From an archaeon (GTDB taxonomy: Archaea; EX4484-52; B79-G9), in the NCBI GenBank assembly GCA_043813875.1, contig JBDRKP010000054.1, positions 751 through 64,750 on the forward strand: DNA of 64,000 nucleotides, written 5' to 3'. The position numbers were made by a program, and so were the translations under genes. Shown here one piece after another: positions 33,296 to 59,859 of the stretch (the first letter of the stretch is position 1; every line of letters starts with the position of its first letter). The notes under the pieces were generated by a model. That model saw only the letters and a program-made list of their open reading frames with translations. It was not told where the DNA came from and made no database searches.

Positions 33296-33298
33296 AAA

Positions 33299-34890: not shown

Positions 34891-34908
34891 AACACTTATT
34901 AAACATTC

Positions 34909-40823: not shown

Positions 40824-40825
40824 TT

Positions 40826-40851: not shown

Positions 40852-40868
40852 AAAGGTATATAAAGCTA

Positions 40869-42157: not shown

Positions 42158-42206
42158 TGGTTGTGTGTTTGAATGGATAAATTAAGTAATTTACCTAAAA
42201 GATGGA

Positions 42207-43523: not shown

Positions 43524-44196
43524 GGTGGACAAACGAAAAATAGAGATATTAAAGTTAATTGATAAGGCGAAAAATTCAAATTATTGTGAAGATTATACGA
43601 CTTTGAAACGAGCAGGATATGAAAGTGGTTTGTTAAAATCCATGATCGACGATAAGTTAATAGAGTATAATTATTCGTTTTACCTAAAAGAAAAGGGCGA
43701 GACAATATTGCGTGATTATCTTATGATTGAAGCATTAGATAAAAAAAATACACCTAAACTCAAGATTATCTTTGATAGTAATGTGTATGATGAAATTGTC
43801 TCTGGAAATTTAAACCTCAATACAATCAACAAGGAAAAATATGAATTTTATATAACCCATATTCAGTCAGACGAGATAAGTAGCTGTCCTGATAATGAAA
43901 AAAGACAAGTACTAACATTGTTTCTATTAAAAATCGCACCAATAATAATTCCTACGGAATCAATAGTTCTCGACGTTTCAAGGTTTGGAGAAGCAAAGTT
44001 TGGAGATGGTCAACTTTTAGAAAAACTAAAGATAGGTAATTCTAAACACACAAAAGATGCTTTAATAGGCGAAACTGCAATTAAAAACAAACTTATTCTC
44101 GTCACGAATGATAAAAAAATGAACATCCGTGTGAATTTAAATGGTGGAAAGGCCATAGATATACACGAATTCAAAGAGATGTTAAATAATGATTAA
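43516..44196 (+). CDS. PIN-like domain protein (putative nuclease) with an N-terminal extension
   Basis: KIIFDSNVYDEIV (first acidic PIN motif) and DALIGETAIKNKLILVTNDKK (a C-terminal PIN motif similar to VapC A.IaatA...LvT.D). Confidence 0.45.
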   Translation: MFEVDKRKIEILKLIDKAKNSNYCEDYTTLKRAGYESGLLKSMIDDKLIEYNYSFYLKEKGETILRDYLMIEALDKKNTPKLKIIFDSNVYDEIVSGNLNLNTINKEKYEFYITHIQSDEISSCPDNEKRQVLTLFLLKIAPIIIPTESIVLDVSRFGEAKFGDGQLLEKLKIGNSKHTKDALIGETAIKNKLILVTNDKKMNIRVNLNGGKAIDIHEFKEMLNND

Positions 44197-45334: not shown

Positions 45335-45966
45335 AAGTAAAAACAATAAAACAGTATGCTTTAAGCGAAGAAACGCTAGAAAAAGACATCGATAAATTTA
45401 TACTATCTGCGCAAAATGGCGAATACAATTACGATTACAAATACGGTCAGGAAGGGCTAAAACTCATAAAAGCATATTTTAGAATGATTGAGGACGAGTT
45501 CAAAAAACAAAATTATACAGAATGCCAAAAATGCTACAAAAAATTAATGTTTTTACTTCTTCAATCCGAATATAACTACTTTGATTACGAAGATATTGTT
45601 GGAAAACTTAATTTTGAAAAGTTAATAAAAAACTATTTTTTATGCCTAATAAATATTTTTTCCGTTGAAGAACTATTCAACGAATATGTCGAATTTCTAA
45701 AAATAAGTGAAGATTATGAATTTGATTCAACACATAAAACCATACTATCTAACTTAAATGAAAAACAATTAGAGCAATTTAGAGAATTGGCTGAAAAAAA
45801 AGCAGAAACTATCAAAAAGGGTGATTATGCTAGTTATGACATTATTTATTTTATTTTAGAATTAGCACAACTCAAAAATGATCCAATTCAGTACAACCTG
45901 TTTTGCAAGAAATACACTCATATTTTAAGCGACGATGAGGATGATGAATTTGATGCAGTTAATTAA
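45331..45966 (+). CDS. Hypothetical all-alpha protein embedded between hsdS and hsdM
   Basis: 211 aa with no recognised domain. Overlapping start and stop with hsdS. Confidence 0.4.
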   Translation: MKVKTIKQYALSEETLEKDIDKFILSAQNGEYNYDYKYGQEGLKLIKAYFRMIEDEFKKQNYTECQKCYKKLMFLLLQSEYNYFDYEDIVGKLNFEKLIKNYFLCLINIFSVEELFNEYVEFLKISEDYEFDSTHKTILSNLNEKQLEQFRELAEKKAETIKKGDYASYDIIYFILELAQLKNDPIQYNLFCKKYTHILSDDEDDEFDAVN

Positions 45967-46010
45967 GTGATCGTGCATGAATACTCCAATTGGGTACTTG
46001 AGGTGAAAAC

Positions 46011-46883
46011 ATGAATAAAAACCATTCGATAAGATTATTCGAAAACAAGAATGTAAGGGTTCAATGGAATCAAGAAGAAGAAAAATGGTATTTTTCAATT
46101 ATCGATGTAATAGAAATATTAACTGGCAGCTCAATTCCAAGAAGATATTGGTCAGACCTAAAAATAAAGCTAAAATCTGAGGGTTTTGAGTTGTACGAAA
46201 AAATCGTACAACTGAAGATGCTTTCTTCAGATGGCAAAAAATATGAAACTGATTGTGCTGACACAGAGCTAATATTAAGAATAATTCAATCCATCCAATC
46301 ACCCAAAGCAGAGCCATTCAAAGTCTGGCTTGCAAAAGTCGGTAATGATAGAATAAATGAAACTTATGACCCCGAACTGGCATTTGACCGGGCAATGAAA
46401 ACATACATTCAAAAAGGGTACTCGAAAGAGTGGATCAATCAGAGACTAAAAACAATTGAAGTAAGAAAGGATCTTACGGACGAATGGCGCCGAACAGGAA
46501 TAGAAAAAGAAACGGACTTTGCCATACTTACAAACGAAATTACAAAAGCATGGTCTGGAAAAACAATTACCGAATACAAAAATCTAAAAAATCTAAAGAA
46601 AGAAAATCTGCGTGACAATATGTCAAATCTAGAACTTGTTTTGAACATGCTTGCAGAAGCCACAACAACAGAATTTTCAAAAAAAGAAGACCCCAAAACC
46701 TTCAGCCACAGTAGGCGTGTGGCCGTATTGGGCGGCACTGTTGCAGGAAATACAAGAAAAGATATAGAAAAACAATTAGGTGAGAGCATAGTGACATCAA
46801 AAAATGCAAAAGACAATCTTTCAGAATTATCATTAAATAATGTTTTTAAAATAGATGAAAAAAAGATTAAAAAGAGGCGATAA
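46011..46883 (+). CDS. Bro-N / DinD-like domain protein
   Basis: N-terminal IRLFENKNVRVQWNQEEEKWYFSIIDVIEILTGS resembles Bro-N/DinD (DNA-damage-inducible protein D) domains. The C-terminal half is coiled-coil. Confidence 0.55.
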   Translation: MNKNHSIRLFENKNVRVQWNQEEEKWYFSIIDVIEILTGSSIPRRYWSDLKIKLKSEGFELYEKIVQLKMLSSDGKKYETDCADTELILRIIQSIQSPKAEPFKVWLAKVGNDRINETYDPELAFDRAMKTYIQKGYSKEWINQRLKTIEVRKDLTDEWRRTGIEKETDFAILTNEITKAWSGKTITEYKNLKNLKKENLRDNMSNLELVLNMLAEATTTEFSKKEDPKTFSHSRRVAVLGGTVAGNTRKDIEKQLGESIVTSKNAKDNLSELSLNNVFKIDEKKIKKRR

Positions 46884-48354
46884 TATGCTAGACTCACAAT
46901 TAAAATCAAAAATAAACTTGCTTTGGAATAAATTCTGGAGCGGAGGGATATCAAACCCGCTTCAGGCAATAGAGCAGATGTCTTACTTAATCTTTATGAA
47001 ACGACTTGAAGACGAAGATGTTTCAAGAGAGCAAAACGCAAAACTTTTAGGTGGAAAATTCACATCAATATTCCCAAAACAAGATTATAAATGGTCTGTC
47101 TGGACAGAATATCCTGCCGAACAGATGCTTGAACATGTAAGAGATAATGTTTTTCCATTCTTAAGAAAGCTTAATGGCGGAGAAAATGGCGTTTATTCTA
47201 AATACATGAAAAACGCTTCTTTTTCAATTCCCACAGCATCCCTTTTAGCAGAAGCAGTAAAAATTATAAATGATATGCACATAAAAGAGCAGAACAGAGA
47301 TACAAAAGGAGATCTTTATGAGTATCTGTTAAGCCAGCTTCAAACAGCAGGGAAAAATGGGCAGTTTAGGACACCAAGGCATATAATCAAGATGATGGTA
47401 GAAATCCTAAATCCAAAATATGGCGATAAAATCTGCGATCCTGCCTGCGGAACAGCTGGCTTTTTGGTTGCGGCCTTTGAACATATTTTGAAAAACAACA
47501 CTTCTGATGATTTAGTGAAAGAAGGGAATTATGCAGGCGATAAATTAAATGAGCTCCAATGGAGAATGTTGCGAGACGAAACACTATATGGTTATGATTT
47601 TGATGATGTGATGCTCAAAATATCATTAATGAACTTAATGATGCACGGGATAAACAATCCTAATGTTGAGCAAAAAAATACTCTTTCAAAAAGGTTTGAT
47701 GAGTCAAACAGCTATGAAATAATCCTTGCAAATCCTCCATTTAAAGGAAGCATAGATGAATCAGACATAGGGGAAAATTTTAGGACACAAACAAAAAAAA
47801 CAGAACTTTTGTTTTTGGAATTGATGTATAATCTTTTAGTAAATAGCGGAAAATGTGCGGTCATTGTTCCAGACGGCGTTTTATTCGGCAATTCAAAAGC
47901 ACATAAAAATATCCGGCAATTGCTTTTAGAAAAATGCCGTCTTGATGCTGTTATTTCGATGCCGTCCGGGGTTTTCAAGCCTTACGCGGGTGTTTCAACC
48001 GCTGTAATGTTTTTCACAAAGGGCGAGCCAACTAAAGAAGTTTGGTTTTACGACATGCAGGCAGATGGTTTTAGCCTGGATGACAAAAGAACACCTCAAC
48101 CAGAAAAGAACGATATTCCAGATATTCTGAAACAATTTAAAAATAGGCAAAAAGATAAGCCCTTGGATAGAAAAGGAAAAGCTTTCTTTGTTCCGTTTGA
48201 AGAGATTAAAGGAAACAATTATGACTTAAGTATTTCAAAATACAAAGAAATAGAATATGAGGAAGTAGCATATGAAAAGCCAGAAGTCATAAAGAAGAAG
48301 ATATTAGAACTTGAGAATAAAATTATAGATGCTTTGAAAGATTTGGAGATATAA
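46855..48354 (+). CDS. hsdM: Type I restriction-modification system, N6-adenine DNA methyltransferase subunit
   Basis: HsdM_N region, motif I DPACGTAGFLV, and motif IV NPPF (LANPPFKGS). Confidence 0.9.
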   Translation: MKKRLKRGDNMLDSQLKSKINLLWNKFWSGGISNPLQAIEQMSYLIFMKRLEDEDVSREQNAKLLGGKFTSIFPKQDYKWSVWTEYPAEQMLEHVRDNVFPFLRKLNGGENGVYSKYMKNASFSIPTASLLAEAVKIINDMHIKEQNRDTKGDLYEYLLSQLQTAGKNGQFRTPRHIIKMMVEILNPKYGDKICDPACGTAGFLVAAFEHILKNNTSDDLVKEGNYAGDKLNELQWRMLRDETLYGYDFDDVMLKISLMNLMMHGINNPNVEQKNTLSKRFDESNSYEIILANPPFKGSIDESDIGENFRTQTKKTELLFLELMYNLLVNSGKCAVIVPDGVLFGNSKAHKNIRQLLLEKCRLDAVISMPSGVFKPYAGVSTAVMFFTKGEPTKEVWFYDMQADGFSLDDKRTPQPEKNDIPDILKQFKNRQKDKPLDRKGKAFFVPFEEIKGNNYDLSISKYKEIEYEEVAYEKPEVIKKKILELENKIIDALKDLEI

Positions 48355-48610: not shown

Positions 48611-49375
48611 TCAAACAGCATCACTCTTCTCAAAAAAATAAGCCCCAAGAGACACCATGATTACAGAGAACCCAAGAAGCACAAAAAAATCAGTCGCAAC
48701 CCCAAACGACGAAAACCCGATAAGCGCTCCCCGCAACCCGTCAACCCCGTAAGTAAGCGGATCAAGATACGACAGGTACCGAACAACAGCCGGCAGGTTC
48801 TCAAGCGGGAACAGTGCCCCCGACAAGAAGAAAAGCGGGAAGATGACGAAATTCATTATCATGTTGAACCCCTGTATGTCCTTCATATTCGATGCGAAGA
48901 TAAGCCCAAGCCCGATAAACGTGCAGGCGATCAAGACCATGAACACCACCGCAGTCAGAAACTGCGCCACTCCCACAACCTCAAAACCCATCAGCAAAGA
49001 GATCAGAAGAATCATCATCCCCTGGATCAAAGCCGTAGTAGTCCCGCCTGCGATCCTCCCAAGGACGATAGACACCCGGTCGACCGGCGCCACCATGATC
49101 TCCTTCAGGAACCCGAACTCCCTGTCCCACAGGACCGAGATTCCCGCAAACATGGACGTAAAAAGCATAGTCATCCCGATGATCCCCGGCACAAGAAACT
49201 GGATATAATTGACCCCGCTAGGCACATTAGGGATAGCCGCCGTATTGAACCCGAACCCGAGAAACGCAAGAAAAAAAAGCGGCATCGCAAGAGTGCCGAT
49301 AATCCTCGACTTGGCCCGCACAAACCTCTTCATCTCCCGAAGCCACATCACATAGATCGCAGTCGTATTAATCAT
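48611..49375 (-). CDS. ABC-2 type transporter permease
   Basis: 6 TM helices of the ABC-2 family. It overlaps the upstream ATPase gene by 4 bp. Confidence 0.8.
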   Translation of the reverse strand: MINTTAIYVMWLREMKRFVRAKSRIIGTLAMPLFFLAFLGFGFNTAAIPNVPSGVNYIQFLVPGIIGMTMLFTSMFAGISVLWDREFGFLKEIMVAPVDRVSIVLGRIAGGTTTALIQGMMILLISLLMGFEVVGVAQFLTAVVFMVLIACTFIGLGLIFASNMKDIQGFNMIMNFVIFPLFFLSGALFPLENLPAVVRYLSYLDPLTYGVDGLRGALIGFSSFGVATDFFVLLGFSVIMVSLGAYFFEKSDAV

Positions 49376-50370
49376 CGTCTCATCCTCATTCTCCTCTTGA
49401 TCAATTCCCTGTTCCGCTCCCCCTGGCTTGCTTCCTCCTCCCTTATGGTCTTCCCCGTGAAATGCAGGAACACATCCTCAAGGCTCGGCTTATGCAGGTT
49501 CACGCTCACGACATTGGTCCCCGTCTTCTCTGCCGCGCTCATAAGCTCAGGGATCCTCTTCTCGCCGCTCACGGCAGTTATATCAATATGCCTTTCGCGC
49601 TCCTTGATCTTCTGGACCCACTTGAACCCGGAAAGTACATCCCTGAACTTCTTGACATCACCCTCGATCTCGAGGCATATCGCATCCCCGCCAAGCACAT
49701 CCTTCAGTTTCGCCGGCGTATCCATGGCGACAATCTTCCCATTATCGATGATAGCGATCCTGTCGCATAGATAGTCCGCCTCCTCCATATAATGCGTAGT
49801 AAGAATTATCGTGACCTGCCCCTCCTTATTCAGCTTCTGGATATACTCCCAGATATGCCTCCTCGTCTGCGGGTCAAGCCCAAGCGTCGGCTCGTCAAGA
49901 AAAAGCACCTTAGGCCTGTGGATAAGCCCCCTTGCGATCTCAAGCCTCCTCTTCATGCCCCCTGAATAATTCTCGACAAGCACATCTGCCTTATCCTTAA
50001 GCTCGACAAGCGAAAGCACCTCATTAATCCTCTCATCTCTCAGTTTTTTCTGCATCCCGTACATCATCGCATGGAACTCAAGATTCTCCCGACCGGTGAG
50101 CTGGAAATCAAGCGCAGGCTCCTGAAAGACAATCCCTATGCTTCTCCTCACATCATCCTTGTGGAGGCTCACGTCAAACCCTGCCACTTCAGCATGGCCA
50201 GACGTAGATTTAAGCAGAGTGGAAAGAATATTGATAGTAGTCGTCTTGCCGGCGCCATTAGGCCCAAGCAGCCCGAAAAGCTCACCAGTTTTAACAGCAA
50301 ACGAAAGAGAATCCACAGCAACAAAATCCCCGAACTTCTTGGTCAGCTTTTCAACCTTTATAGCATCCAT
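49372..50370 (-). CDS. ABC transporter ATP-binding protein (DrrA-like exporter ATPase)
   Basis: GPNGAGKTT, YSGGMKRRL and LFLDEPTLGLD, with a C-terminal extension typical of the DrrA/CcmA family. Confidence 0.9.
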   Translation of the reverse strand: MDAIKVEKLTKKFGDFVAVDSLSFAVKTGELFGLLGPNGAGKTTTINILSTLLKSTSGHAEVAGFDVSLHKDDVRRSIGIVFQEPALDFQLTGRENLEFHAMMYGMQKKLRDERINEVLSLVELKDKADVLVENYSGGMKRRLEIARGLIHRPKVLFLDEPTLGLDPQTRRHIWEYIQKLNKEGQVTIILTTHYMEEADYLCDRIAIIDNGKIVAMDTPAKLKDVLGGDAICLEIEGDVKKFRDVLSGFKWVQKIKERERHIDITAVSGEKRIPELMSAAEKTGTNVVSVNLHKPSLEDVFLHFTGKTIREEEASQGERNRELIKRRMRMRR

Positions 50371-50432
50371 AAACTCACAATCATATTATTGATTCAAATC
50401 ATCTTAAAATTTGCAGTCATTCCCGACATCAA

Positions 50433-51393
50433 GGCTTTGTCCCAAAATACGGTTGGTAAAATATAATTAGTACAGCGTACATATTTTATCTTGGGAAATC
50501 AAAATGAGCAGGCTGCATAAATTGTAGTGACTTTTATTCTTTATGGTTCCGTTCGACAAAAGAGCGTGGCAATATACAACGCTTCAAATGTAAGTCTTGC
50601 GGTTCTGTTTTTGTAAAAGACGACGGCTTCAGATGGAGACACAAGAGCAGGAAAACAATAATCGATAGCTTACTTCTTTCCACGAAGCTCTCTTTCAGAG
50701 AAGTCAGGGAAATCATGTATGTCAGCAAGAATACGATTTGGGCATGGCTAAAATGTTATACTGTAAAGCTTTCCGCATATCTGAAAGAGAAGATACAGAT
50801 GCAATGCGAAAAACTCCACATGGATGAGCTTTTTCTCAGTATGTGCAATGGTTTCCATTACATCTGGGATGCTATATGCAGCGACACAAAATATGGATAT
50901 TGGTTTCTTGCCGAAAAAAGAACATCAAATAATGCAAAAAAGCTGATGAGAATGAGTGCGATACCACTCGATAAACTCATAACAGACGGATTTTTCTCAT
51001 ACATACGGCCAGTAAAGGAGGTCTACGGATTACGCTTCTATTACACGAAATATCACCGCTGCGAATCCTTTGAAGACAAGAAAAACAACAATATAATCGA
51101 ACGCTTGCAGAACACATTAAGAAGATACCTGCACTTCAAGCGTGGTTTCTATAGCTGTAAGACAGGGAATGTATTCCTGGATTTCGTCAAAATATATTAC
51201 AACTTTGTCAGAAATCATATGGCGATTGGATGTACCCCTGCAGAGAAAGCAGGATTGATATGTTTCTTAGAGGAAAAGAGAGAGTATGACCGGTTGAGGA
51301 AGTTGATTGAACTCTCTTTTTTGCGTTTGTTTTACAGTTGTTGGTCATTGGTTCAATTGGATTTTGGCTCACCAACCGTAAATTGGGACAAAG
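50433..51393 (+). mobile_element. IS6-family insertion sequence, copy 1 (about 960 bp) with 20-27-bp terminal inverted repeats
   Basis: IRL GGCTTTGTCCCAAAATACGGTTGGTAA at 50433-50459. IRR is the reverse complement, CCGTAAATTGGGACAAAGCC, at about 51371-51393 (2 mismatches). The internal DDE transposase carries the IS6-type zinc-finger N-terminus. Confidence 0.75.
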
Positions 51394-51416
51394 CCGACAA
51401 CTGTCTCAGAAAATAA
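50503..51416 (+). pseudogene. IS6-family transposase, N-terminus disrupted (frameshift between MSRLHKL and the zinc-finger/HTH frame)
   Basis: The ATG at about 50503 gives MSRLHKL then a stop. The +1 frame continues RFKCKSCGSVF...LSFREVREIM into the tracked ORF 50715..51416 (HMDELF ... TDGFF ... IIERLQNTLRR, a DDE-like motif). Compare the intact N-terminus of copy 2 (MSCCIYCGS...RFYCKDCMRIF). Confidence 0.6.
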
Positions 51417-51420
51417 TATA

Positions 51421-53296
51421 TATGCGTCCTGCACAAATATTGATTGACCGTGAATATCGTATATCTCCCGTGCCTGACATGAAAAAAGCATTCGCATTTA
51501 ACTGGATAATAACCGGCCTGATAGTAGGCCTTGTGGCCATCGGCATATTTCTAGGCATCCTCAACAACATCTTCACCGAACGCGCAAGACAGGATGCGAA
51601 CAAGCAGTTCTCAGACATGTACACCGACATAAACACCCTCTGCAAAGCAGGCGCAGGCGAAGAGACATACCGGAAAACAGAACTTCCCGACATCGTCGAA
51701 GCCATATACACGACAGACAATGTAAAAATATATCCCGATGATATCGACGAGAAAATAACTATCCATAACACTTCCATCGGGACATACTTATGCATGAAAT
51801 TAAGAGAAGAGAAACCTAAATGCAAAAAACTGAACTGCATAGCAGAAGTAAGCTACCTCGGCCAGAAAAAGACAGTATTATCCTTGGCAGACAAGATTCT
51901 AAAACGCTCAAGCTACACAACATATCCGCTTGACTTCACAAAAAAAGAATGCGGTGTCCGTGTTTTCGATGAGGATACCGGCGATGCGGATTCAATCATG
52001 GATTGCGGATACTGCGGAGATAATATCATAGATTCAGACGAGATATGTGATGGCAATGACGGATGCAGTGGATCTATGGTCTGTAAAGACGATTGCAGCA
52101 TATGCGAATCAGGGCCTGTACTGTCCTTCTCAGTCTCCTGTGACCCTGGTCATCCAGCTGACGCCGTCTTCGTAAATACCGACAAGACCTTATGCTTTGA
52201 CGGAAAGAAACGGTTCCCACTTTCAATGCATGCTGTATGTTATCCTTGGCAAGAAGGTAGGGATTCTACCGTATCTCCATGCAATCCAGACACATTTACA
52301 GGAGCATTCAATGCAGACTCAGCACATTCAGGTTCAACGTATTCAAGTGCTGGAATCCACGGGAGTATTTCAATAACAAATGCTCCAAGCAGTGATTCTG
52401 GTTTTACCTTCTACGTCCAGCCGGATGAACCAGCAGACTCTTTGATGTCAACAGTCCGTGATTATTATGATACTGCGCATACTAGTGATCCAGAACATCC
52501 TGTTATTCTAAATCACTGGCATAACCTTATGACGTGGTCTCAATATGCAGATATAATTACTTGGGATACATATACCCTCCGTTATGGTAGTCCTACTACC
52601 TGGGATAACTGGGACAGAGACGATTTCTTGTATGCATGGGAATATCAATCCAAGGCCGCTGCCTTGCCTAGCAATGATATTGAAGATATTCCGAAGCCGG
52701 TGTGGGCTGTTCTTCAAGCCAACGGAATTTCTTTTAGCGAAGGATCATCTCAATTTTACATACCGACACAAAAAGAGGCAAGAGCGCAGGCATATACTGC
52801 CATAACTACGAATGTAAATGGTCTGGGTTGGTGGGGAAATAAGGTTGATAGTAACCTCAATGTAATCGGGTTGGATAGAGATGAAACTGTACAGACGTAT
52901 TTCATTAATCTTGGAAAAGAACTGACAGGATTAAATGACATTCTGATACTTCCGTCAACAGATTATTCGTGGGAATATCGTCCAGGTACAATGGTTTCAT
53001 TCAGCGATAAATACACAAAGTCTCTTGGCGGTTATGTCAATCATATATTCTCTTCAAACTTCAACTACATGCTCAAGCAAAATGGAGCAACCTATTATCT
53101 GATTGTTGTCAACAAAGACATCCGCCCAATATCTGATGTGGATATCACCACAAGCGGATTATCCGGAGTGATGACCGCCAGAACTATTGGATTGGCTGAA
53201 GCCGGAAGCGTTCCAGGAAGAACCTTGGCCGTGACAGAGGGCAGATTCAGAGACTCTTTTGACGGCTATGCAGTGCACATCTATATGATTGAATGA
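51421..53296 (+). CDS. Secreted/membrane-anchored Cys-rich protein (cargo between the two IS6 copies)
   Basis: N-terminal signal anchor (MKKAFAFNWIITGLIVGLVAIGIFLGI), a Cys-rich module (DCGYCGDNIIDSDEICDGNDGCSGSMVCKDDCSICESG), then an approximately 400-aa Trp-rich domain. The track start at 51338 runs through the IS right IR; the ATG at 51421 or 51479 is more likely. Confidence 0.5.
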
Positions 53297-53484
53297 TGCG
53301 CATCGTTTGACCCCTCATTAGTGTGTTATCTTCTCATTCTCTTTCTTTACCATCTCATACCGCCTATCAAGCGCCTTCCTGATCATCTCCTTTGCGATGG
53401 CAAGCGCCGCATCCCTCGGCATCACGCCTTCCTTTTCCGCGCGCGACAGGACAAGCTCGGTATTCCTGTTGATCTTCTCCTCAA

Positions 53485-53733
53485 TCATCCGGTAACCGTA
53501 TTCTTGCATACCGGCATGAACTCTTCAACTTCACGAAACGACATTTTAGTCGTCAAAAGGATGCTCTTCACGATTGTTTCTTTGCTCTTGTGCTTGTTCT
53601 TGAAACCACCGTCCACAACAAAGATTCGCATACAGTCTTTGCAATAGAACCTTTGGATCTTACCTCGCTCTTTAGTAAGTCTTGACCCGTATTTTATTAA
53701 AGAGAGAGAACCACAATATATACAGCAGCTCAT
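53485..53733 (-). pseudogene. Truncated IS6-family transposase (N-terminal zinc-finger/HTH region only), copy 2
   Basis: MSCCIYCGS...KERGKIQRFYCKDCMRIFVVDGGFKNKHKSKETIVKSILLTTKMSFREVEEFM is homologous to the copy-1 N-terminal frame. It stops after 82 aa and has no DDE domain. Confidence 0.6.
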
Positions 53734-53904
53734 GTTTTATCTCCTAATAAAATATGGCTGCTACTATAGTCAAGGCATGAAATAAATGAGCAAACATCGC
53801 CAAAAACCAATTTGCCTTGATCTATATGGGAAGGCACTCTGCTCAATTTATTAGTGCCTTCACTATAGTTATTTAAATTACCAACCGTATTTTGGGACAG
53901 TGCC
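53500..53904 (-). mobile_element. Partial IS6-family element, copy 2 (inverted orientation), retaining the left terminal IR
   Basis: TTACCAACCGTATTTTGGGACAGTGCC at 53878-53904 is the reverse complement of the copy-1 IRL with 2 mismatches. Homology to copy 1 ends near 53500. Confidence 0.6.
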
Positions 53905-55005
53905 AACATCAAAAAACCCTCTCTTTATCCCCACATAAGCGCACTGCCCATAACTCACCCCGTAGTCCCCGCAGGCGACATCGACATTCATCTTCACACC
54001 CTTATCCGTAAGTATCCCCCTGATGATGGAATTATAAGCGACACCGCCGGAAAACACAATCTCCTTCTTGTACTTGGAAGCGATACCAAACAACCCGGAA
54101 GCGACATAATGATGCGCAGTCGCCGAAAGTCTCCCCTTATCCGAATCCCGGTTCTCATACAGGAACTCAAAAAGCCGGGTAGTATCAAGTATCCATCTAT
54201 CCTTCATCTTGATCACAGGCAAAAGCTCAAACGGCTCTGCCCCGATTGCATGCTTCTCAAGAACAATCGCCGGCTCCCCGTCATAAGTCCTCTTTCTACA
54301 GAACCCAAGCATAGCCGAAACCGCATCAAGCACCCGCCCGCAACTGGTCGTATGAAACACATTGAAACCAAGCTCAGCCTGCCTACTCATCAAAGACACC
54401 TCAGCCGGATCAAATCCCTCAAGCTTGCCGATCTCATCACGAGAAAGGAACTTCGTCAATATCCCAAAAAGCATCCTGAGAGGATACATGACAGCGCTGT
54501 CACCCCCGACCATCATCTGCTCCTCAAGCGACCCCACGCGCTTGTCACCCAAAAATACCTCGCCGCCCCATATCTTTCCGTCACTCCCATATCCCGTCCC
54601 GTCGCACGCGATGCCGCAGAAATCATCATCAATAATTCCATTCTCAACAGCAGCAGAATACACATGCGCCGCATGATGCTGCACATCGACAAGTTCAGCG
54701 CCAGCCTCATCCGCGACCTCTTTCGCATACTCCCTGTTGGAATATTGAGGATGCATATCCCGCGCCACAACATCAATAGGACCCGTCGTTTTCATAATTT
54801 TGACAACCGCCGCCCTGAAAGCATCCATATTCTCCACATAAGAAAGATCCCCGAAATTGCGCGACAGATGCGCCTTATTACCCGAAAACACACAGAAACT
54901 CCCGTTCGCCTCCGCCCCCATTCCAAGAATCGTGCTGGAACATATTGGAATCCCCAGATCAAAAGAATGATTCCCCTTCCGTAAAGATGACTGTCCCTCT
55001 GCCAT
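53878..55005 (-). CDS. HypF-like carbamoyltransferase Kae1/YrdC-type C-terminal domain protein (stand-alone), with its C-terminus supplied by the IS terminal repeat
   Basis: VQHHAAHVYSAAVENG and ACDGTGYGSDGKIWGGEV match the HypF C-terminal (Kae1-like) domain. The last residues TVPKYGW-stop are encoded by the IS6 IR. Confidence 0.65.
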   Translation of the reverse strand: MAEGQSSLRKGNHSFDLGIPICSSTILGMGAEANGSFCVFSGNKAHLSRNFGDLSYVENMDAFRAAVVKIMKTTGPIDVVARDMHPQYSNREYAKEVADEAGAELVDVQHHAAHVYSAAVENGIIDDDFCGIACDGTGYGSDGKIWGGEVFLGDKRVGSLEEQMMVGGDSAVMYPLRMLFGILTKFLSRDEIGKLEGFDPAEVSLMSRQAELGFNVFHTTSCGRVLDAVSAMLGFCRKRTYDGEPAIVLEKHAIGAEPFELLPVIKMKDRWILDTTRLFEFLYENRDSDKGRLSATAHHYVASGLFGIASKYKKEIVFSGGVAYNSIIRGILTDKGVKMNVDVACGDYGVSYGQCAYVGIKRGFFDVGTVPKYGW

Positions 55006-55079
55006 GGATTATAATCTGTTATCTAAAAATTAAATACCTGTAATAATTCTGCAACCGTAGACTCACAGATTGTATATAA

Positions 55080-56021
55080 TTACGCAAACATATGGTCTAG
55101 GTCCGGTGTGTTCTTATTGTAAAAATCATCAATGCGCATTTTTTGTTTTTCACACATTTCACTGAACAGATTTTCATTCACTGCCATATCCAGCAAAGAA
55201 CAGATGCCTTGATATATGGTTTTGCTGCTATTGACCACATTATCAAAGCTTGGGAATTCATCATATTTTATGCCTGCTTTGATGACCATGCAATTGACCG
55301 GTGTTCTGTCTTCGTTTTGCGCTCCCCTTCGTTGTTGCGCTATGTCCTGTATCATATAAGCATGATGGTCTTTCAATGATCCTCTACTGTTCAAAGGTTT
55401 GGCTTTAAACGAATCTAATATTTTATCAGTATACTCGTCTCCATCATATGCGCCTGTATAGTAAAAGCCGTCGCCATTTTTATTGATCTTGTCCTTGAAC
55501 ATGCCTATGGAGATGATATTTTTGATCTCATTTTCAATAGCTATCTTGTAAGTGCAATGCCTGACGATATGATCGTTCTCAGGGCTATATCCTGTTTTAG
55601 GTAATGAAAATATTGTATTCTTATCCAGAGAGTAGAACAGGGCTGTTTCAGGTATTTCTGCCTGTCCGTGATAATCATGGATTTCTGGTTCATTGAAGTT
55701 CGTTATATACGCGAGCGGTTTGGCATTTAGTTGCTTGATGACAGTCTTAAGTGCTATTGCATTCGGAAATGGATCATGTGGCAGCATCAATGTATTGCTT
55801 GCAGCAGCTTCTATGATTGTGGCATCTTTGAATTTGAGTTGTGATTTCAGGAATTCCTTATCATAGATTATATGTTCATCATAGTTTATTCCATTTGTTT
55901 CCATGATATTCACATCAAAATCTATCTGGTATTGCTTTATTTCACAAAACATTTTAAATACTTTCTGGTTGTAACAAAAAACAAATATCATCCCACCCAA
56001 ACATGAGACGAAAATATTCAC
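55080..56021 (-). CDS. Hypothetical protein (AT-rich; possible small accessory island with the adjacent NTase/HEPN pair)
   Basis: 313 aa with no recognised domain and lower GC than the flanking core genes. Confidence 0.35.
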   Translation of the reverse strand: MNIFVSCLGGMIFVFCYNQKVFKMFCEIKQYQIDFDVNIMETNGINYDEHIIYDKEFLKSQLKFKDATIIEAAASNTLMLPHDPFPNAIALKTVIKQLNAKPLAYITNFNEPEIHDYHGQAEIPETALFYSLDKNTIFSLPKTGYSPENDHIVRHCTYKIAIENEIKNIISIGMFKDKINKNGDGFYYTGAYDGDEYTDKILDSFKAKPLNSRGSLKDHHAYMIQDIAQQRRGAQNEDRTPVNCMVIKAGIKYDEFPSFDNVVNSSKTIYQGICSLLDMAVNENLFSEMCEKQKMRIDDFYNKNTPDLDHMFA

Positions 56022-56131
56022 AAAGTCAGATGAACTTCCATTCTTATTGTGATTCGCATAAGGAATATATTTAAGTTATAAGATATCAATAGAGAGTATA
56101 TATGCATTGAAAAATATCTGATGACCTGATA

Positions 56132-56806
56132 TTGATACCTAAAAGATGTTGTAATATTAAAACCGGCGCGATAGATATGACTGCTAATCCAAAAAAACCC
56201 TCAAGTTCAAACCCAAAAATAAGTGATATGACTCAAAAATGGGTTCGTCTATTATTCCCATTCACAAACAATTATGGCGCAAGACTCACAGAAACAGAAC
56301 TATCACGATTATCAGACATACCCCAACAGACCGCGTCAAGATATCTGAACCAGCTGGTTGAACAGAACCTTATAGATTATACAAGACAGGGAAAAAACAA
56401 GCTATTCTACATAGACCATTCAAGACAGACATCAATCCTGCTTCTTGAAATACTCGAAGCGCACAAGGCATTGCATTTCCAGCAAAAATCCGGAGAGATA
56501 TCTCTGATAATCAACGACATCCTCAAAACTTTTGAATCTGTGATAGTATTCGGTTCCTACTCATCCTACACATTTGATAAAGATTCCGACCTTGACCTTG
56601 TCATAATCGGAAAGGACAATCAGGACCTCTTAAAACAGATAAAGCAGCGCCATACGATCAACATAAACGAACACATCTTATCCGCCAACGAATTTTCCAG
56701 ATCATTAAGATCAAAAAATCCCCTGTCTTTGGAGATACTGAAAAACCACATAATATTCGGCAACATTTCACGCATTGTCAGTCTTTTTTCAGAGGTGTCA
56801 GGATGA
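56132..56806 (+). CDS. HTH-fused nucleotidyltransferase (MNT family)
   Basis: wHTH (LSDIPQQTASRYLNQLVEQNLIDYTRQGKNKLFY) plus the NTase motif VIVFGSYSSYTFDKDSDLDLVIIG. Confidence 0.65.
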   Translation: MIPKRCCNIKTGAIDMTANPKKPSSSNPKISDMTQKWVRLLFPFTNNYGARLTETELSRLSDIPQQTASRYLNQLVEQNLIDYTRQGKNKLFYIDHSRQTSILLLEILEAHKALHFQQKSGEISLIINDILKTFESVIVFGSYSSYTFDKDSDLDLVIIGKDNQDLLKQIKQRHTININEHILSANEFSRSLRSKNPLSLEILKNHIIFGNISRIVSLFSEVSG

Positions 56807-57288
56807 ACCTCCAAAAGATATGCTGGTGTATCAATCAGAAGAAAGGGATACGTTTGATTGACCTGAAGCCGCACCTGAGCGAATCCTATATACTGGAAGC
56901 AGACGAAACCCTCGAAAATGTATTTACAGCCAAAGGTAAATGGAAACTGATAACCGCATACTATGCCGCATACAACGCGCTCTATTCCATATTGATGAAA
57001 TCAGGCATAAGATGCGAGATCCATGATTGCACAATTGAGTTGATGAGTTTATTTGGCTTCACAGATAAAGACACAGAATATATGAGAGACCTGAAAGACA
57101 AAAGGATCCAGGCGCAATATTACCTGAAAAATATCGCCTTGGATGACGAGCAGGATGTCAAGAGATTCATTCTGGAATGTAAACTGATATTAAGCTCTCT
57201 CAACTCAGAAAAAATAGAAAAGATAAGATCCGAAATATCGAAAGCAAAAGAGAGTCCGAATAATGATCTGTCCTCATACAACCAGTAA
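56803..57288 (+). CDS. HEPN-domain protein (partner of the upstream nucleotidyltransferase)
   Basis: 161-aa alpha-helical protein that overlaps the NTase gene by 4 bp. Same architecture as the other pairs. Confidence 0.55.
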   Translation: MNLQKICWCINQKKGIRLIDLKPHLSESYILEADETLENVFTAKGKWKLITAYYAAYNALYSILMKSGIRCEIHDCTIELMSLFGFTDKDTEYMRDLKDKRIQAQYYLKNIALDDEQDVKRFILECKLILSSLNSEKIEKIRSEISKAKESPNNDLSSYNQ

Positions 57289-57407: not shown

Positions 57408-57791
57408 TCATCCGGTATCAACCTCATCCACCGGAACAATCAGGACCGCCCCCATAAGTTCTCCATGCTTGATGACCCCGTCAGCAGCCACACAGAACAG
57501 CACCTTGTCAATCGACCTCTCGCTCGTGATAGGCAAAAAAAGATCCTCTCCCACACCGACGACAGCGCCAAGCGGATGCCTCATATAAGGGCACAGGATG
57601 ACGATATTATTCTTATGTATTGTGACTGTCTTCACATCGATGAACATGTTCGTATTATCCTCGATCTTCATCTCCTTCTTGCAATAGAGATAAGCGATCC
57701 GCATCCTGTCCTCTATCTCATAATTATAGTCCTTAAGATGCCTCTTCCTCGCCTCCTCATGCCCCGAAATCAGATGCTTTATATACGACAT
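57408..57791 (-). CDS. Hypothetical protein co-transcribed downstream of atpD
   Basis: A 127-aa ORF that overlaps the atpD 3' end by 13 bp. No domain recognised. Confidence 0.35.
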   Translation of the reverse strand: MSYIKHLISGHEEARKRHLKDYNYEIEDRMRIAYLYCKKEMKIEDNTNMFIDVKTVTIHKNNIVILCPYMRHPLGAVVGVGEDLFLPITSERSIDKVLFCVAADGVIKHGELMGAVLIVPVDEVDTG

Positions 57792-58438
57792 TCACTCACC
57801 CCTTCACACTCGCTCTCGCTTTTCATGGCTTCCTTGATATGCTTCAGCCTCGAATAATCCTCCCTCTCCATCTCATCAAGATAATCCCTGATATACTTAT
57901 CAGCAGCAACAAGACTCACGATCTTCACCTTCTCAAGCGCATTCACCTTTCGCCTCGTTTTCTTGATCTCAAAAGAAAGCACATGCACCTTCTTCTCAAG
58001 CGCCGCAAGCTTCACCGCCATTATAGATAGCTCCCTCATCTTTAGAACAACATCATCAAGCGCGATCGGCGTCCCGATAAGGCTATAAGCTACCCCTCCA
58101 TCATCACTCATTCGAGCATCGACGACCGGCACCTTCACGCCGACCATCTTTTTGTGATTCATGCTGATCTCGATCCTTTTGGACTTATTATATGCCGTAT
58201 TCCGGTATGCCATAGACCCCATCTTCATCTCGGCAAGCTTCGCCGAAAGAAAACACATCCGCCCGAAAGTCCCGGCCTCTCTCCTGTAGATATCGAGCTC
58301 CTCCTTCGCCTTCAGCTGCTCGGTGATAAGCGTATCCCTCTTCTTCTTGAGCATATTATGCCCTTTTCTTGCAAGCACAAGCTTCGCATCCACAGCCTGA
58401 AGTTCCATCCTCGTCGGGCTCACATCGACATCATTCAT
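57779..58438 (-). CDS. atpD: A/V-type ATP synthase subunit D
   Basis: N-terminal SPTRMELQ...[19 protein letters not shown] typical of subunit D. Coiled-coil throughout. Confidence 0.85.
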
Positions 58439-59859
58439 TCCTTCGCACCTTCTTTACCATCTTCGCCTGCTTCACTTTCTTTAAGATGTTTCGCGACAAT
58501 CTCATCCGGGATCCTCTTAAGCTCGCTCTTCGGCAGTCCCGAAAAAAGCTTCCAACCGATATCAAGCGTATCATCGATTGTCCTGTTCTCACTGGACTTC
58601 TGGCACAGGAATTTCTCCTCGAACTCCCGCGCAAACGTAAGATACTTATAATCAACATCACTCAGGCTCTCCTCCCCGATGACCGAGACGATCTCGCGGA
58701 TGTCCTTGCCCTCCGAATACGCGCTATAAAGCTGGTTGGACACAGAGTGATGATCCTCCCTCGTCTTTCCCGCCCCGATACCATTCCCCATCAGCCTCGA
58801 AAGCGACGGCAGCACATTGATAGGCGGCGTGATGCCTGCCTGGTGCATCTTCCTGTTCAACACGATCTGCCCCTCGGTGATATAGCCGGTAAGGTCGGCG
58901 ACAGGATGCGTGATATCGTCATTAGGCATAGTGAGAATCGGGATCTGCGTGATAGTCCCCTTCGCCCCCTTGACTCTTCCCGCCCTCTCGTAGATCGAAG
59001 CAAGATCCGTATACATATAGCCCGGGTACCCTCTCCGTCCCGGCACCTCGTTTCGTGACGCGCTCACCTCTCTCAAGGCCTCGCAGTAGTTAGTCATGTC
59101 AGTAAGTATCACAAGCACATGATAGTCATGCTTATAAGCAAGAAATTCAGCCGTAGTGAGCGCCACCCTCGGCGTGATAAGCCTCTCTATAGCCGGGCTG
59201 TCAGACAGATTAAGGAACATCACAACATTCTCGATAGCGCCGCTCTCATCGAAATTCCTGACAAAAAAATCCGCCTCTTCAAATGTTATGCCCATGGCAC
59301 AAAACACCACGCAGAACTTCACATCCTCATTGCCCTCACCCTTCACGACCGCCTGCCTTGCTATCTGCGCCGCAAGCTCATTGTGCGGCAGCCCCGCCCC
59401 TGAAAAGATAGGCAGCTTCTGCCCCATCACAAGCGAATTCATGCCGTCGATCGCAGAGACGCCCGTCTGGATGAAATCCTTCGGCGACTCCCTTGCCGTA
59501 GGATTGAGCGACCTCCCGTTGACATCCTCCTTCACCTCGGCAACCACCTTAGGGCCGCTTATCGGCCTCCCTGCCCCGTCAAACACACGTCCCACCATAT
59601 CCAAAGAAAGCGCGACCTTGAAAGTCTCGCCAAAAAACCTCACCTTCGTCCCCTTCGTGTCAAGCCCCATCGTAGATTCAAAAATCTGCACGCATGCGAT
59701 ATTCTCGCTGATCTCAAGTATCTTCCCCCTCTTAAGGACACCTGATGATGTCTCTACCTCGACAATCTCCCCGTAGCCGACACCGGACACCCCTTCCACA
59801 AAAAGAAGCGGCCCCTCGACTGATCTGACATTACAGTATTCTTTGATCACTCTTTCCAC
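58435..59859 (-). CDS. atpB: A/V-type ATP synthase subunit B
   Basis: Non-catalytic nucleotide-binding subunit with [15 protein letters not shown] and [20 protein letters not shown]. Confidence 0.95.

What the first reader, a model, noticed from the sequence alone, without database searches (positions are those of the whole stretch)
50425..53912. Composite IS6-family structure (degenerate full copy, cargo, inverted truncated copy) flanked by a 7/8-bp target-site duplication
Three copies of the same 20-27-bp terminal repeat are present: IRL at 50433-50459, the IRR of copy 1 at about 51371-51393, and an inverted IRL at 53878-53904. The outermost ends are bounded by GACATCAA (50425-50432) and AACATCAA (53905-53912). 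IS6-family elements characteristically make 8-bp duplications and form composite transposons (IS26 behaviour). The enclosed 3.47 kb carries a frameshifted transposase, a 650-aa secreted Cys-rich protein, and an orphan 63-aa ORF. Neither transposase is intact, so the unit is probably a fossil, but it mobilised a surface-protein cargo.
Basis: seen in the sequence. Interest (0 to 1): 0.7.

Follow-up and report, generated by a model that had tools for sequence, protein, structure and literature searches.

The report
Decayed IS6-like compound transposon, archaeal genome
A 3.5-kb piece of mobile DNA sits at the end of a hypF-like gene in an uncultivated archaeon: two different, now dead, IS6-like insertion sequences bracket a gene for a membrane-anchored glycosidase-like protein and a broken dehydrogenase gene, which is an ordinary transposon fossil with one unusual architectural detail.

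Summary
Three copies of a 25-27-nt terminal repeat lie at 50433-50459, 51371-51395 and 53878-53904. None occur elsewhere in the window. The outermost ends abut GACATCAA and AACATCAA, a 7/8 match with chance P about 6.5e-4.

The left element (IS-L, 963 bp) is full length. Three single-base indels kill its transposase gene. The right element (IS-R) is inverted and cut off after codon 79.

Both belong to an unnamed clade seen mostly in DPANN-type archaeal metagenomes. Its transposase has a zinc ribbon, an HTH and an IS240-type DDE domain. Intact relatives carry the same repeats and perfect 8-bp duplications in 5 independent insertions.

The interpretation needs correcting:
- The two arms are different IS species, about 53% amino-acid identity.
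- They are inverted, not direct, so this is not IS26-type pseudo-compound behaviour.
- The "650-aa" protein is a 605-aa membrane-anchored protein with a glycoside-hydrolase-like fold.
- The "orphan" 63-aa ORF is the 3' remnant of a Glu/Leu/Phe/Val dehydrogenase gene, fused to the IS-R breakpoint.

No empty site was found. Movement of the unit as a whole therefore rests on the 7/8 duplication alone. This is a new member of a known kind, of modest interest.

The parts
50425..50432 (.). Left copy of the putative 8-bp target-site duplication, GACATCAA
   Evidence: Read directly. It matches 53905-53912 at 7/8; chance P = 6.5e-4.
50433..51395 (+). IS-L: a full-length (963 bp) but inactivated IS6-like insertion sequence
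   Evidence: Bounded by IRL 50433-50459 and IRR 51371-51395. It aligns end to end with the intact relatives in L010 (969 bp), L013 (990 bp) and L016 (925 bp).
50433..50459 (+). IRL of IS-L, GGCTTTGTCCCAAAATACGGTTGGTAA
   Evidence: The same repeat ends the relatives' elements.
50504..51381 (+). Transposase pseudogene of IS-L (zinc ribbon, HTH, DDE). Frameshifts: +1 nt near 50510, -1 nt in the T6 run 51317-51322, -1 nt near 51340. The ancestral stop TAA (51379-51381) lies inside IRR.
   Evidence: Pfam DDE_Tnp_IS240 39.4 bits against a cut-off of 27. NCBIfam IS6 78.5 bits against a cut-off of 125; IS1 44.7 bits. Three single-base repairs restore a 296-aa ORF ending ...WFNWILAHQP*, like P0002.
51371..51395 (-). 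IRR of IS-L, GGCTTTGTCCCAATTTACGGTTGGT read from outside inward
   Evidence: It is identical to the IRR of the relative in L010/L011.
51396..51478 (+). Passenger DNA upstream of the cargo gene. It is AT-rich and includes AATAATATATAT. Its first 8 nt, GACAACTG, match the left octamer at only 5/8.
   Evidence: 5/8 or better has chance P = 0.034. A promoter role is inference.
51479..53296 (+). Cargo gene, 605 aa: N-terminal transmembrane helix, a ~165-aa module, a Cys-rich linker, and a C-terminal glycoside-hydrolase-like alpha/beta barrel with beta sandwich
   Evidence: Homologues and their domain split. AlphaFold2 model with mean pLDDT 70, best in residues ~300-605. Foldseek PDB matches to GH30, GH13 and GH51 enzymes at E 3e-8 to 2e-6 but TM only 0.2-0.4.
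53318..53493 (-). 3' remnant (last ~56 codons plus stop) of a Glu/Leu/Phe/Val dehydrogenase gene. This is the 'orphan 63-aa ORF', whose first codons overlap IS-R.
   Evidence: Exhaustive HMMER search, best E = 1.4e-7. Hits P0179, P0181, P0182, P0186 and P0188 carry PF00208 and match at their C-terminal ends. GC is 51%.
53494..53904 (-). IS-R: the inverted 5' part of a second, different IS of the same clade. It has IRL, a 5' UTR and 79 codons (53733 down to 53497), then is truncated.
   Evidence: Homology to relatives ends after ...CKNTV at 53494. Its N-terminal peptide passes the NCBIfam IS1_IS1595_Zn cut-off, 32.3 against 28. It is about 53% identical to IS-L over ~80 aa.
53773..53873 (-). 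~101-nt extra segment in the 5' UTR of IS-R, absent from IS-L and all relatives, carrying its own ~15-nt inverted repeats (53855-53869 / 53763-77)
   Evidence: Alignment gap and self-match of the UTR. The boundaries depend on the alignment.
53878..53904 (-). IRL of IS-R, GGCACTGTCCCAAAATACGGTTGGTAA. This is the clade's canonical IRL and matches the IS26 TIR at 12 of 14 positions.
   Evidence: IS26 TIR sequence from PMC8477213.
53905..53912 (.). Right copy of the putative 8-bp target-site duplication, AACATCAA
53878..55005 (-). Target gene: stand-alone HypF C-terminal (Kae1-like) carbamoyltransferase-domain gene. Its last 8 codons and stop are now supplied by the IS-R repeat.
   Evidence: Pfam HypF_C and HypF_C_2. 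A family of ~370-aa stand-alone proteins. The C-terminal tail is not conserved among relatives.
49372..50370 (-). Left neighbour: DrrA-type ABC transporter ATPase, start codon 62 bp from IS-L

Best explanation
Window 50433-53904 is a decayed compound-transposon-like insertion in an uncultivated, probably DPANN-type, archaeon. It sits at the extreme 3' end of a stand-alone hypF-C gene, 62 bp upstream of an ABC-transporter operon.

Its two ends are the outward-facing left repeats (IRL) of two different members of one IS6-like clade. Elements of this clade are about 930-990 bp. They encode a single ~296-aa transposase with a zinc ribbon, an HTH and a DDE domain. They have 25-27-bp repeats and make 8-bp target duplications.

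Proposed mechanism:
1. In a donor context, IS-L and IS-R came to flank a segment. That segment carried a membrane-anchored glycosidase-like gene and a dehydrogenase gene.
2. A deletion removed the inner part of IS-R together with most of the dehydrogenase gene.
3. A clade transposase then used the two nearly identical outer IRLs (25/27) as the ends of one unit. The enzyme came from IS-L while it was intact, or acted in trans.
4. It inserted the unit at a staggered 8-bp cut, giving the GACATCAA / AACATCAA duplication.
5. IS-L later accumulated three frameshifts, so the unit is now immobile.

Shown: the repeats, the family affinity, the 8-bp duplications made by the clade, the 7/8 flanking repeat, the decay, and the identity of the passengers.

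Inferred: that the unit moved as a whole, the order of events, and the source of the transposase.
For: - The repeats occur at exactly three sites, with 0 expected by chance.
- The outer octamers match at 7/8, P = 6.5e-4. IS-L's own two flanks match at only 5/8, P = 0.034.
- Relatives at 43-66% amino-acid identity carry the same repeats. They show perfect 8-bp duplications in five independent insertions: L010/L011 AAAAATCA, L013 TTCCCAAT, L016 TGATAACC, L017 TGGCTTTG and L024 TGCATTCG.
- Family affinity: Pfam DDE_Tnp_IS240 is above cut-off in the window copy and in all 12 full-length members of the alignment, window copy included. IS6 is the best NCBIfam transposase model. All 15 listed rows of the 1897 plasmid tblastn matches are annotated IS6-family genes, at 25-28% identity.
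- C3, C6, C28 and C31 are invariant. D106, D160, E198 and R205 are nearly invariant.
- Both outer ends are IRL followed by the transposase 5' end, so the structure cannot be one IS split by an insertion.
- A second strain at 99.65% identity carries the identical structure, including all three indels, so these are not assembly errors.
Against: - No empty site was found. The only same-species genome also has the insertion. An exact-pattern scan of JGI metagenomes for the reconstructed junction found nothing.
- Two more distant relatives are rearranged here. L021 joins the small ORF directly to the ABC gene. L007 and L008 have hypF followed by other genes that lie 18 kb away in the window. The locus is a plasticity hot spot where independent events are plausible.
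- The arms are different IS species.
- Functional IS6-family compound transposons are reported to have direct, not inverted, arms (PMC7986276).
- The dehydrogenase remnant has the GC content of the flanking core genes (51%) and lies on their strand, so it could be local DNA.
- The passenger's GC (43.5%) is close to the window mean (42%) in a very mosaic window, so composition does not show foreign origin.
- One octamer position differs.
Confidence: 0.6

Rival explanations
1. In-situ accumulation. IS-R and IS-L inserted independently at two nearby sites in a plastic region. The DNA between them (cargo gene and dehydrogenase gene) was already there. A later deletion truncated IS-R and the dehydrogenase gene. 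The 7/8 octamer match is coincidence.
For: - The arms are different IS species, about 53% amino-acid identity.
- The dehydrogenase remnant has core-like GC (51%) and the same strand as hypF and the ABC gene.
- The hypF-to-p245 interval holds ~18 kb of lineage-specific DNA, including a strain-variable type I restriction-modification island.
- IS-L's own flanks share 5/8, including the first four bases.
- Three of the clade insertions examined (L012, L014, L020) lack duplications.
Against: - A 7/8 match at exactly the two outer IS tips has P about 6.5e-4. It stays below about 1e-2 even if an A-rich target preference is assumed (the second figure is my estimate).
- A 5/8 match (P = 0.034) is a poor duplication for IS-L, given that its repeats are still 23/25 alike.
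Confidence: 0.2
2. Targeted integration next to a resident IS. IS-R first inserted alone at the hypF 3' end and made the 8-bp duplication. A circular or other molecule carrying IS-L plus the passenger then joined precisely at IS-R's other end, by transposase-mediated or repeat-mediated exchange. This is conceptually like IS26 targeted conservative cointegration. It left IS-L's IRL against the old left duplication copy. IS-R was later truncated.
For: - It explains the duplication without requiring two-ended movement of a composite.
- The IS6 family is known for conservative targeted reactions at IS ends (PMC8477213 abstract).
- The left outer repeat has an IRR-type tip (GGCTTTG) on an IRL-type body, as a crossover within the repeat would give.
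Against: - The described IS6-family cointegrate pathway and functional compound transposons leave the two IS copies as direct repeats (PMC7986276); that IS26 targeted conservative events do the same is my own recollection, not checked here. The arms here are inverted.
- Positions 4-5 of the repeat tip vary freely in the clade (AC, TT, TC, AG), so a chimeric repeat is not needed.
- There is no direct evidence.
Confidence: 0.15
3. Intramolecular replicative transposition in trans (an IS26-type inversion) duplicated one IS in inverted orientation and inverted the DNA between.
For: This is the known route to inverted IS6-family copies (PMC7986276).
Against: - The two arms are only about 53% identical in protein.
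- The predicted signature is an inverted target duplication, one copy inside and one outside. Here the reverse complement of the right outer octamer matches IS-L's inner flank at 2/8.
- The outer flanks form a direct repeat, which this route does not produce.
Confidence: 0.02

Closest known systems
IS6 (IS6/IS26) family insertion sequences, especially the Firmicutes IS1216/ISS1 group and the longer clostridial members with an N-terminal zinc finger
   Same: - Single-ORF DDE transposase with an IS240-type catalytic domain and a basic residue 7 positions after the catalytic E.
- Terminal repeats starting GGnnnTG. The IRL GGCACTGTCCCAAA matches the IS26 TIR GGCACTGTTGCAAA at 12/14.
- 8-bp target duplications.
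- Small size.
- Association with passenger genes.
(PMC7986276; PMC6807381.)
   Different: - Only 25-28% identity to annotated IS6 transposases.
- Below the NCBIfam IS6 equivalog cut-off, 78.5 against 125.
- IS1/IS1595-type zinc ribbon at the N-terminus.
- Repeats of 25-27 bp rather than 14 bp.
- Elements of ~930-990 bp rather than ~800 bp.
- The stop codon lies inside IRR.
- The passenger is bracketed by inverted arms of two different IS species, whereas functional IS6 compound transposons are described as always direct.
IS1 family, including archaeal single-ORF members
   Same: - N-terminal zinc ribbon. NF050000 IS1_IS1595_Zn passes its cut-off for IS-R.
- GGnnnTG repeat tips are shared between IS1 and IS6 (PMC6807381).
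- NCBI labels one relative 'IS1/IS6 family transposase'.
   Different: - The IS1 transposase model scores lower than IS6: 44.7 against 78.5 bits here, and best E 4e-18 against 1e-25 across the clade.
- The Pfam hit is DDE_Tnp_IS240, not the IS1 DDE domain.
- Intact relatives show no two-ORF frameshift organisation.
Classical compound transposons with inverted IS arms (Tn10 / Tn5 type); this comparison is from general knowledge, not tested here
   Same: Two IS elements in inverted orientation bracket passenger genes. The outermost repeats act as the ends of one unit. A single target duplication flanks the whole. One arm may be defective.
   Different: - The arms here are different IS species of an IS6-like clade, and one is only a 411-bp stump.
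- No active transposase remains.
- The mode of transposition (cut-and-paste or replicative) is unknown.

Membership tests
IS6 family | DDE transposase with the IS6/IS240-type catalytic domain (D, D, E, then K/R) | tested here: met
   Pfam PF13610 scores 39.4 bits against a gathering cut-off of 27 and matches all 12 full-length clade members. D106, D160, E198 and R205 are conserved.
IS6 family | Passes NCBI's curated IS6 transposase model (NF033587, equivalog) | tested here: not met
   78.5 bits against a cut-off of 125. It is the best transposase model but below threshold.
IS6 family | Terminal inverted repeats beginning GG with G at position 7 (GGnnnTG), related to GGTTCTGTTGCAAA | tested here: met
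   The tips are GGCACTG and GGCTTTG. The IRL matches the IS26 TIR at 12/14 and the family consensus at 10/14 (PMC6807381).
IS6 family | 8-bp direct target duplication | tested here: met
   Five independent relatives have perfect 8-bp duplications. The window unit has 7/8.
IS6 family | Passenger genes carried in pseudo-compound transposons whose arms are direct repeats, as a consequence of cointegrate formation and resolution | tested here: not met
   The arms are inverted, with IRL facing outward at both ends. The rule is quoted from PMC7986276.
IS6 family | Transposition exclusively through cointegrates (copy-in or targeted conservative) | not testable with these tools
   This needs a transposition assay. 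Sequence alone cannot show it.
IS6 family | Typical length of 700-890 bp with short (~14 bp) repeats | tested here: not met
   IS-L is 963 bp and relatives are 925-990 bp, with 25-27-bp repeats. Longer members carrying a zinc finger do exist in the family (PMC7986276).
IS1 family | IS1-type transposase (NF033558) as the best match, or InsA/InsB organisation with a programmed frameshift | tested here: not met
   IS1 scores 44.7 bits against a cut-off of 100 and below IS6. Relatives have one uninterrupted ORF of 290-301 aa.
IS1 family | N-terminal IS1/IS1595-type zinc ribbon | tested here: met
   NF050000 scores 32.3 bits against a cut-off of 28 for the IS-R peptide. 8 of 13 alignment members match. 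The CxxC...CxxC cysteines are invariant.
Compound (composite) transposon | Two IS elements bracketing passenger DNA, with a functional pair of inverted ends outermost | tested here: met
   The outer IRLs are 25/27 complementary.
Compound (composite) transposon | A single target-site duplication flanking the whole unit | tested here: inconclusive
   7/8 identity, P = 6.5e-4, but one mismatch and no empty site for confirmation.
Compound (composite) transposon | Arms are copies of the same IS | tested here: not met
   About 53% amino-acid identity over the shared ~80 residues, and IS-R has an extra ~101-nt UTR segment.
Compound (composite) transposon | Evidence of movement as a unit: an empty site, or the same unit elsewhere | tested here: inconclusive
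   No empty site and no second copy turned up in any search: same-species MAG, IR scan of GTDB representative genomes, empty-junction scan of JGI metagenomes, IMG/VR, and homologue searches. The species is very rare in the databases.

The most novel reading that the evidence does not exclude
An undescribed archaeal IS clade sits between IS6 and IS1: an IS1-type zinc ribbon, an IS6-type DDE domain, and unusually conserved 27-bp ends. Unlike IS26-type elements, it would move passenger genes as true two-ended compound transposons with inverted arms, possibly of different species. That implies a transposition outcome not described for the IS6 family. It would also be a route by which surface glycosidase-like genes spread among DPANN-type archaea.
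Probability: 0.35. Interest if true: 0.45.

Novelty: new member of a known kind. Interest (0 to 1): 0.3.

Why it matters
If the unit did move as a whole, it is a natural example of an IS6-like element forming an inverted-arm compound transposon. The IS6 literature says functional family members do not do this. It would also document IS-mediated gene traffic, here of an extracellular glycosidase-like protein, in small-genome uncultivated archaea whose mobile elements are poorly catalogued.

In practice, the clade's nearly invariant 27-bp ends give a convenient probe for finding these elements. So does the 8-bp duplication rule, seen in 5 of 8 examined insertions. The repaired 296-aa transposase sequence is a ready construct for testing whether archaeal 'IS6' elements work like IS26 at all. 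As it stands, the locus is an inactive fossil with no obvious effect beyond replacing the last few, non-conserved, codons of hypF-C.

Tried and rejected
1. Scan of GTDB representative genomes for the 19-nt repeat core gave 5 hits in unrelated bacteria and an archaeon. None has a neighbouring transposase or matching tips, and about 17 hits are expected by chance at that pattern length (my estimate). All were rejected as chance. The source species is not among those genomes.
2. Exact-pattern scan of JGI metagenomes for the reconstructed empty junction gave 0 hits.
3. IMG/VR scans for the repeat and for the transposase gave nothing relevant.
4. I tried to recover an empty site from relatives. L001 (same species) has the insertion. 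L021 (89% nt identity) lacks the whole 6.9 kb between the small ORF and the ABC gene. L007 and L008 have a different downstream gene order. None gives a precise empty site.
5. I compared the reconstructed HypF C-terminus with homologues. The tail is not conserved, and both the IS and the left flank supply a Gly codon at the junction, so the test is uninformative.
6. GC content as evidence of foreign origin: the window is a 31-52% mosaic and the cargo sits near the mean. This is weak evidence only.
7. PDB sequence search and Pfam scan of the 63-aa ORF found no dehydrogenase. Identification came only from the exhaustive representative search followed by Pfam on the hits.
8. The inversion model was rejected.
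9. The model of a single IS split by an insertion was rejected, because both outer ends are IRL plus the transposase 5' end.
10. I looked for an IS or integrase at the far boundary of the 18-kb lineage-specific block. None was found.

Full report
**1. The observation**

Reading 50200-54200 and searching for repeats confirms three copies of one terminal repeat.
- GGCTTTGTCCCAAAATACGGTTGGTAA at 50433-50459 (+).
- Its near-complement at 51371-51395.
- GGCACTGTCCCAAAATACGGTTGGTAA on the minus strand at 53904-53878.

A 25-mer search allowing 3 mismatches finds exactly these three sites in the 64-kb window, with zero expected in shuffles. A much looser search finds no fourth copy.

The octamers touching the outermost tips are GACATCAA (50425-50432) and AACATCAA (53905-53912). 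Random 8-mer pairs drawn from this window agree at 7 or more positions with P = 6.5e-4. The observation therefore stands, with small coordinate and length corrections.

**2. The two IS elements**

*IS-L.* The left element spans 50433-51395 (963 bp).
- From 50508 its main frame translates to a 302-residue product with a CxxC...CxxC zinc ribbon, an HTH region and a DDE domain.
- Pfam DDE_Tnp_IS240 scores 39.4 bits against a gathering cut-off of 27.
- NCBIfam's IS6 model is the best transposase model (78.5 bits, E = 5e-22) but falls below its 125-bit cut-off. The IS1 model scores 44.7 bits.

*Relatives.* A search of 5.8 billion proteins returns only 44 relatives. The closest, outside the same-species copy (P0001, from the second strain), is 66% identical, and most are 290-300 aa. 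The few that carry names come from Aenigmarchaeota and Micrarchaeota MAGs, and one is labelled "IS1/IS6 family transposase". All 12 full-length members aligned (the window copy included) match DDE_Tnp_IS240. tblastn against 72,556 plasmids hits 1897 records at 25-28% identity. All 15 listed rows are annotated IS6-family transposases, namely IS1216 and a clostridial IS6 member.

*Decay of IS-L.* DNA alignment with three intact relatives shows three frameshifting indels in IS-L.
- An extra base just after the ATG, near 50510.
- One T missing from a T-run at 51317-51322.
- One base missing near 51340.

Repairing these three bases restores a 296-aa ORF ending ...WFNWILAHQP*. Its TAA stop (51379-51381) lies inside the right repeat, exactly as in relatives P0002 and P0003. 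The same indels are present in an independent MAG of the same species, so they are not assembly errors.

*IS-R.* The right element is inverted. It consists of IRL, a 144-nt 5' UTR and 79 codons. The UTR includes about 101 nt that no relative has. Homology stops at 53494. Its N-terminal peptide is only about 53% identical to that of IS-L. The two arms are therefore different IS species that share almost identical ends.

**3. How the clade behaves**

Contigs encoding relatives were fetched.
- All have the same ends: IRL GGC(AC/TC/TT)TGTCCCAAAATACGGTTGGTAA and IRR GGC(TT/TC)TGTCCCA(A/G)TTTACGGTTGGTGA.
- Five independent insertions have perfect 8-bp direct duplications: L010/L011 AAAAATCA, L013 TTCCCAAT, L016 TGATAACC, L017 TGGCTTTG and L024 TGCATTCG.
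- Three lack one (L012, L014, L020). The left flank of L014 and the right flank of L012 share AAAAACAA. That suggests recombination between copies, or assembly across copies.

The 8-bp duplication is a hallmark of the IS6 family (PMC7986276). So are the GGnnnTG tips (PMC6807381). The canonical IRL matches the IS26 TIR GGCACTGTTGCAAA (PMC8477213) at 12 of 14 positions.

The clade is nevertheless not canonical IS6.
- It is below the curated model cut-off.
- It has an IS1/IS1595-type zinc ribbon (NF050000, 32.3 bits against 28).
- Its repeats and overall length are greater.

Harmer and Hall already argue that archaeal "IS6" elements may deserve their own family (PMC6807381).

**4. The passengers**

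*The large ORF.* The 652-aa ORF begins at a TTG inside the IS-L right repeat. Homologues and both NCBI annotations support the ATG at 51479 and a 605-aa product.
- Residues 1 to ~165 hold a transmembrane helix plus a module 55-63% identical to the N-termini of other archaeal proteins. One of these carries a GH5 cellulase domain.
- A Cys-rich linker follows.
- Residues ~220-605 are 35-43% identical to proteins carrying CBM or Big_2 modules.
- An AlphaFold2 model has mean pLDDT 70 and is good in the C-terminal 300 residues. It matches GH30, GH13 and GH51 glycosidases by Foldseek at E 3e-8 to 2e-6, though TM scores are only 0.2-0.4.

I call it a membrane-anchored, glycoside-hydrolase-like protein. 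The fold-level assignment is moderately supported. Enzymatic activity is untested.

*The 63-aa ORF.* This ORF (53318-53509, minus strand) is not an orphan. An exhaustive HMMER search gives 18 hits, best E = 1.4e-7. The longer hits carry PF00208, the Glu/Leu/Phe/Val dehydrogenase domain, and match at their extreme C-termini. The remnant begins right where IS-R homology ends. One deletion therefore removed the inner part of IS-R together with most of a dehydrogenase gene.

**5. Context**

The window comes from an NCBI MAG labelled only "archaeon". The insertion replaces the last few codons of a stand-alone HypF C-terminal-domain gene. That gene belongs to a ~370-aa family common in DPANN archaea and CPR bacteria, and its C-terminal tail is not conserved.

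In more distant relatives (L007, L008), hypF is followed by a 245-aa protein, thioredoxin and feoAB. In the window these genes lie 18-28 kb further along the minus strand. Between hypF and that 245-aa gene lie:
- the IS unit;
- the ABC operon;
- a low-GC type I restriction-modification island, which is strain-variable;
- a 546-aa unknown ORF.

A closer relative (L021, 89% nt identity) joins the small ORF after DUF22 directly to the ABC gene. It lacks the 6.9 kb that includes hypF and the IS unit. The locus is thus a plasticity hot spot, and no precise empty site could be recovered. The exact-pattern metagenome scan for the reconstructed junction was also negative.

**6. Explanation and rivals**

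*Best explanation (0.6).* The simplest account of a direct 7/8 octamer repeat exactly at two outward-facing IRLs is that the 3,472-bp unit inserted as one piece. A clade transposase would have acted on the two outer ends.

This is not IS26-like behaviour. Functional IS6 compound transposons are reported always to have direct arms, because they move through cointegrates resolved by recombination (PMC7986276). Two inverted outer ends can nonetheless serve as one large IS under either a cut-and-paste or a replicative scheme. That statement is inference.

*Rival 1, independent insertions with a chance octamer match (0.2).* Favoured by:
- the different identity of the arms;
- the core-like GC of the dehydrogenase remnant;
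- the evident plasticity of the region.

It has to absorb a P of roughly 1e-3 coincidence.

*Rival 2, integration of IS-L plus passenger precisely at the end of a resident IS-R (0.15).* The resident element's duplication would survive. This also explains the octamers, and it fits the IRR-like tip on IS-L's IRL. But described IS6-family cointegrate products carry the IS copies as direct repeats (PMC7986276), and tip positions 4-5 vary freely in the clade.

*Rival 3, intramolecular replicative inversion (0.02).* Excluded by the divergence of the arms and by a 2/8 match for its predicted inverted duplication.

**7. Verdict**

Four points need correcting.
- The analogy to IS26 behaviour does not hold.
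- The two arms are not copies of one IS.
- The cargo protein is 605 aa, not 650.
- The 63-aa ORF is a gene remnant, not an orphan.

It is a new, unnamed member of a known kind of element in a poorly sampled archaeal lineage. Interest is modest. The only unusual aspect is the inverted-arm architecture in an IS6-like clade, and its significance depends on an empty-site or transposition test that could not be done here.

Noticed in passing
window 53763-53873 (minus strand, inside the IS-R 5' UTR): IS-R carries a ~101-nt segment between its IRL and start codon that IS-L and all relatives lack. The segment has ~15-nt terminal inverted repeats (53855-53869 / 53763-53777, 14/15) and an inner 9-bp hairpin (GAAGGCACT...AGTGCCTTC). 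It looks like a tiny MITE-like insertion. No other copy occurs in the window or in the fetched loci.
   Followed up: partly
window 38025-48354: A low-GC (31-36%) block encodes a type I restriction-modification system (HsdR, HsdS, HsdM) interspersed with ORF6N, Schlafen/AlbA_2 and Bro-N domain genes. The same-species MAG (L001) diverges from the window exactly at 48610, just past the ABC permease. It carries DUF4352 and DUF2326 genes there instead, so this is a strain-variable defence island.
   Followed up: partly
window 55006-57288: A low-GC (37%) three-gene island lies between the small ORF after DUF22 and hypF. It holds a 313-aa unknown, a MarR-HTH plus nucleotidyltransferase (NTP_transf_2/Polbeta) protein, and a 161-aa unknown. 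It is absent in relative L007, where hypF follows the small ORF directly. It may be a toxin-antitoxin-like module.
   Followed up: partly
L021 1209-1427 versus window 50365-57288: A congeneric contig (89% nt identity) joins the ATP-synthase/DUF22/small-ORF cluster to the ABC ATPase through an unrelated 219-bp spacer. It lacks hypF, the island and the IS unit. Homology resumes about two codons into the ABC gene.
   Followed up: partly
window 25964-35664 versus L007 4482-7944: Homologues of the genes that follow hypF in relatives lie 18-28 kb away in the window, in the same order and strand. These are the 245-aa STT3-like protein, thioredoxin, feoA and feoB. About 18 kb of lineage-specific DNA was therefore added between hypF and its ancestral neighbour, plus another ~6 kb between thioredoxin and feoA that includes a ZnuABC-type transporter.
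   Followed up: partly
L018 37-1106: In one metagenome contig a complete clade IS is followed after exactly 8 bp (CCTGCCAA) by a second IRL. This is either a head-to-tail tandem with an 8-bp spacer or an assembly artefact across copies.
   Followed up: no
L012 and L014 flanks: Two contigs encode the identical transposase P0003. Each lacks a duplication on its own. However, the right flank of L012 and the left flank of L014 both read AAAAACAA, as if flanks had been swapped by recombination between copies or by assembly.
   Followed up: no
window 58456-58473: An 18-nt in-frame indel relative to the second strain lies where the ATP synthase B and D subunit genes meet (B: 58435-59859 minus strand; D: 57779-58438).
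   Followed up: no
window 53878-55005 and one search hits: The hypF here is a stand-alone Kae1-like C-terminal half (~370 aa), without the acylphosphatase, zinc-finger and YrdC domains. Hundreds of similar stand-alone proteins exist in DPANN archaea and CPR bacteria: 578 at E <= 1e-30, most of the best 120 listed lacking those N-terminal domains. Their role without the N-terminal half is unclear.
   Followed up: no
window 51369-51395 and relatives' right ends: The consistent two-base asymmetry between the clade's left and right repeats (AAAAT versus AATTT/AGTTT) coincides with the transposase stop codon TAA, which is embedded in the right repeat.
   Followed up: yes
whole window: No tRNA gene and no Rfam family at gathering threshold was found in 64 kb.
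   Followed up: no
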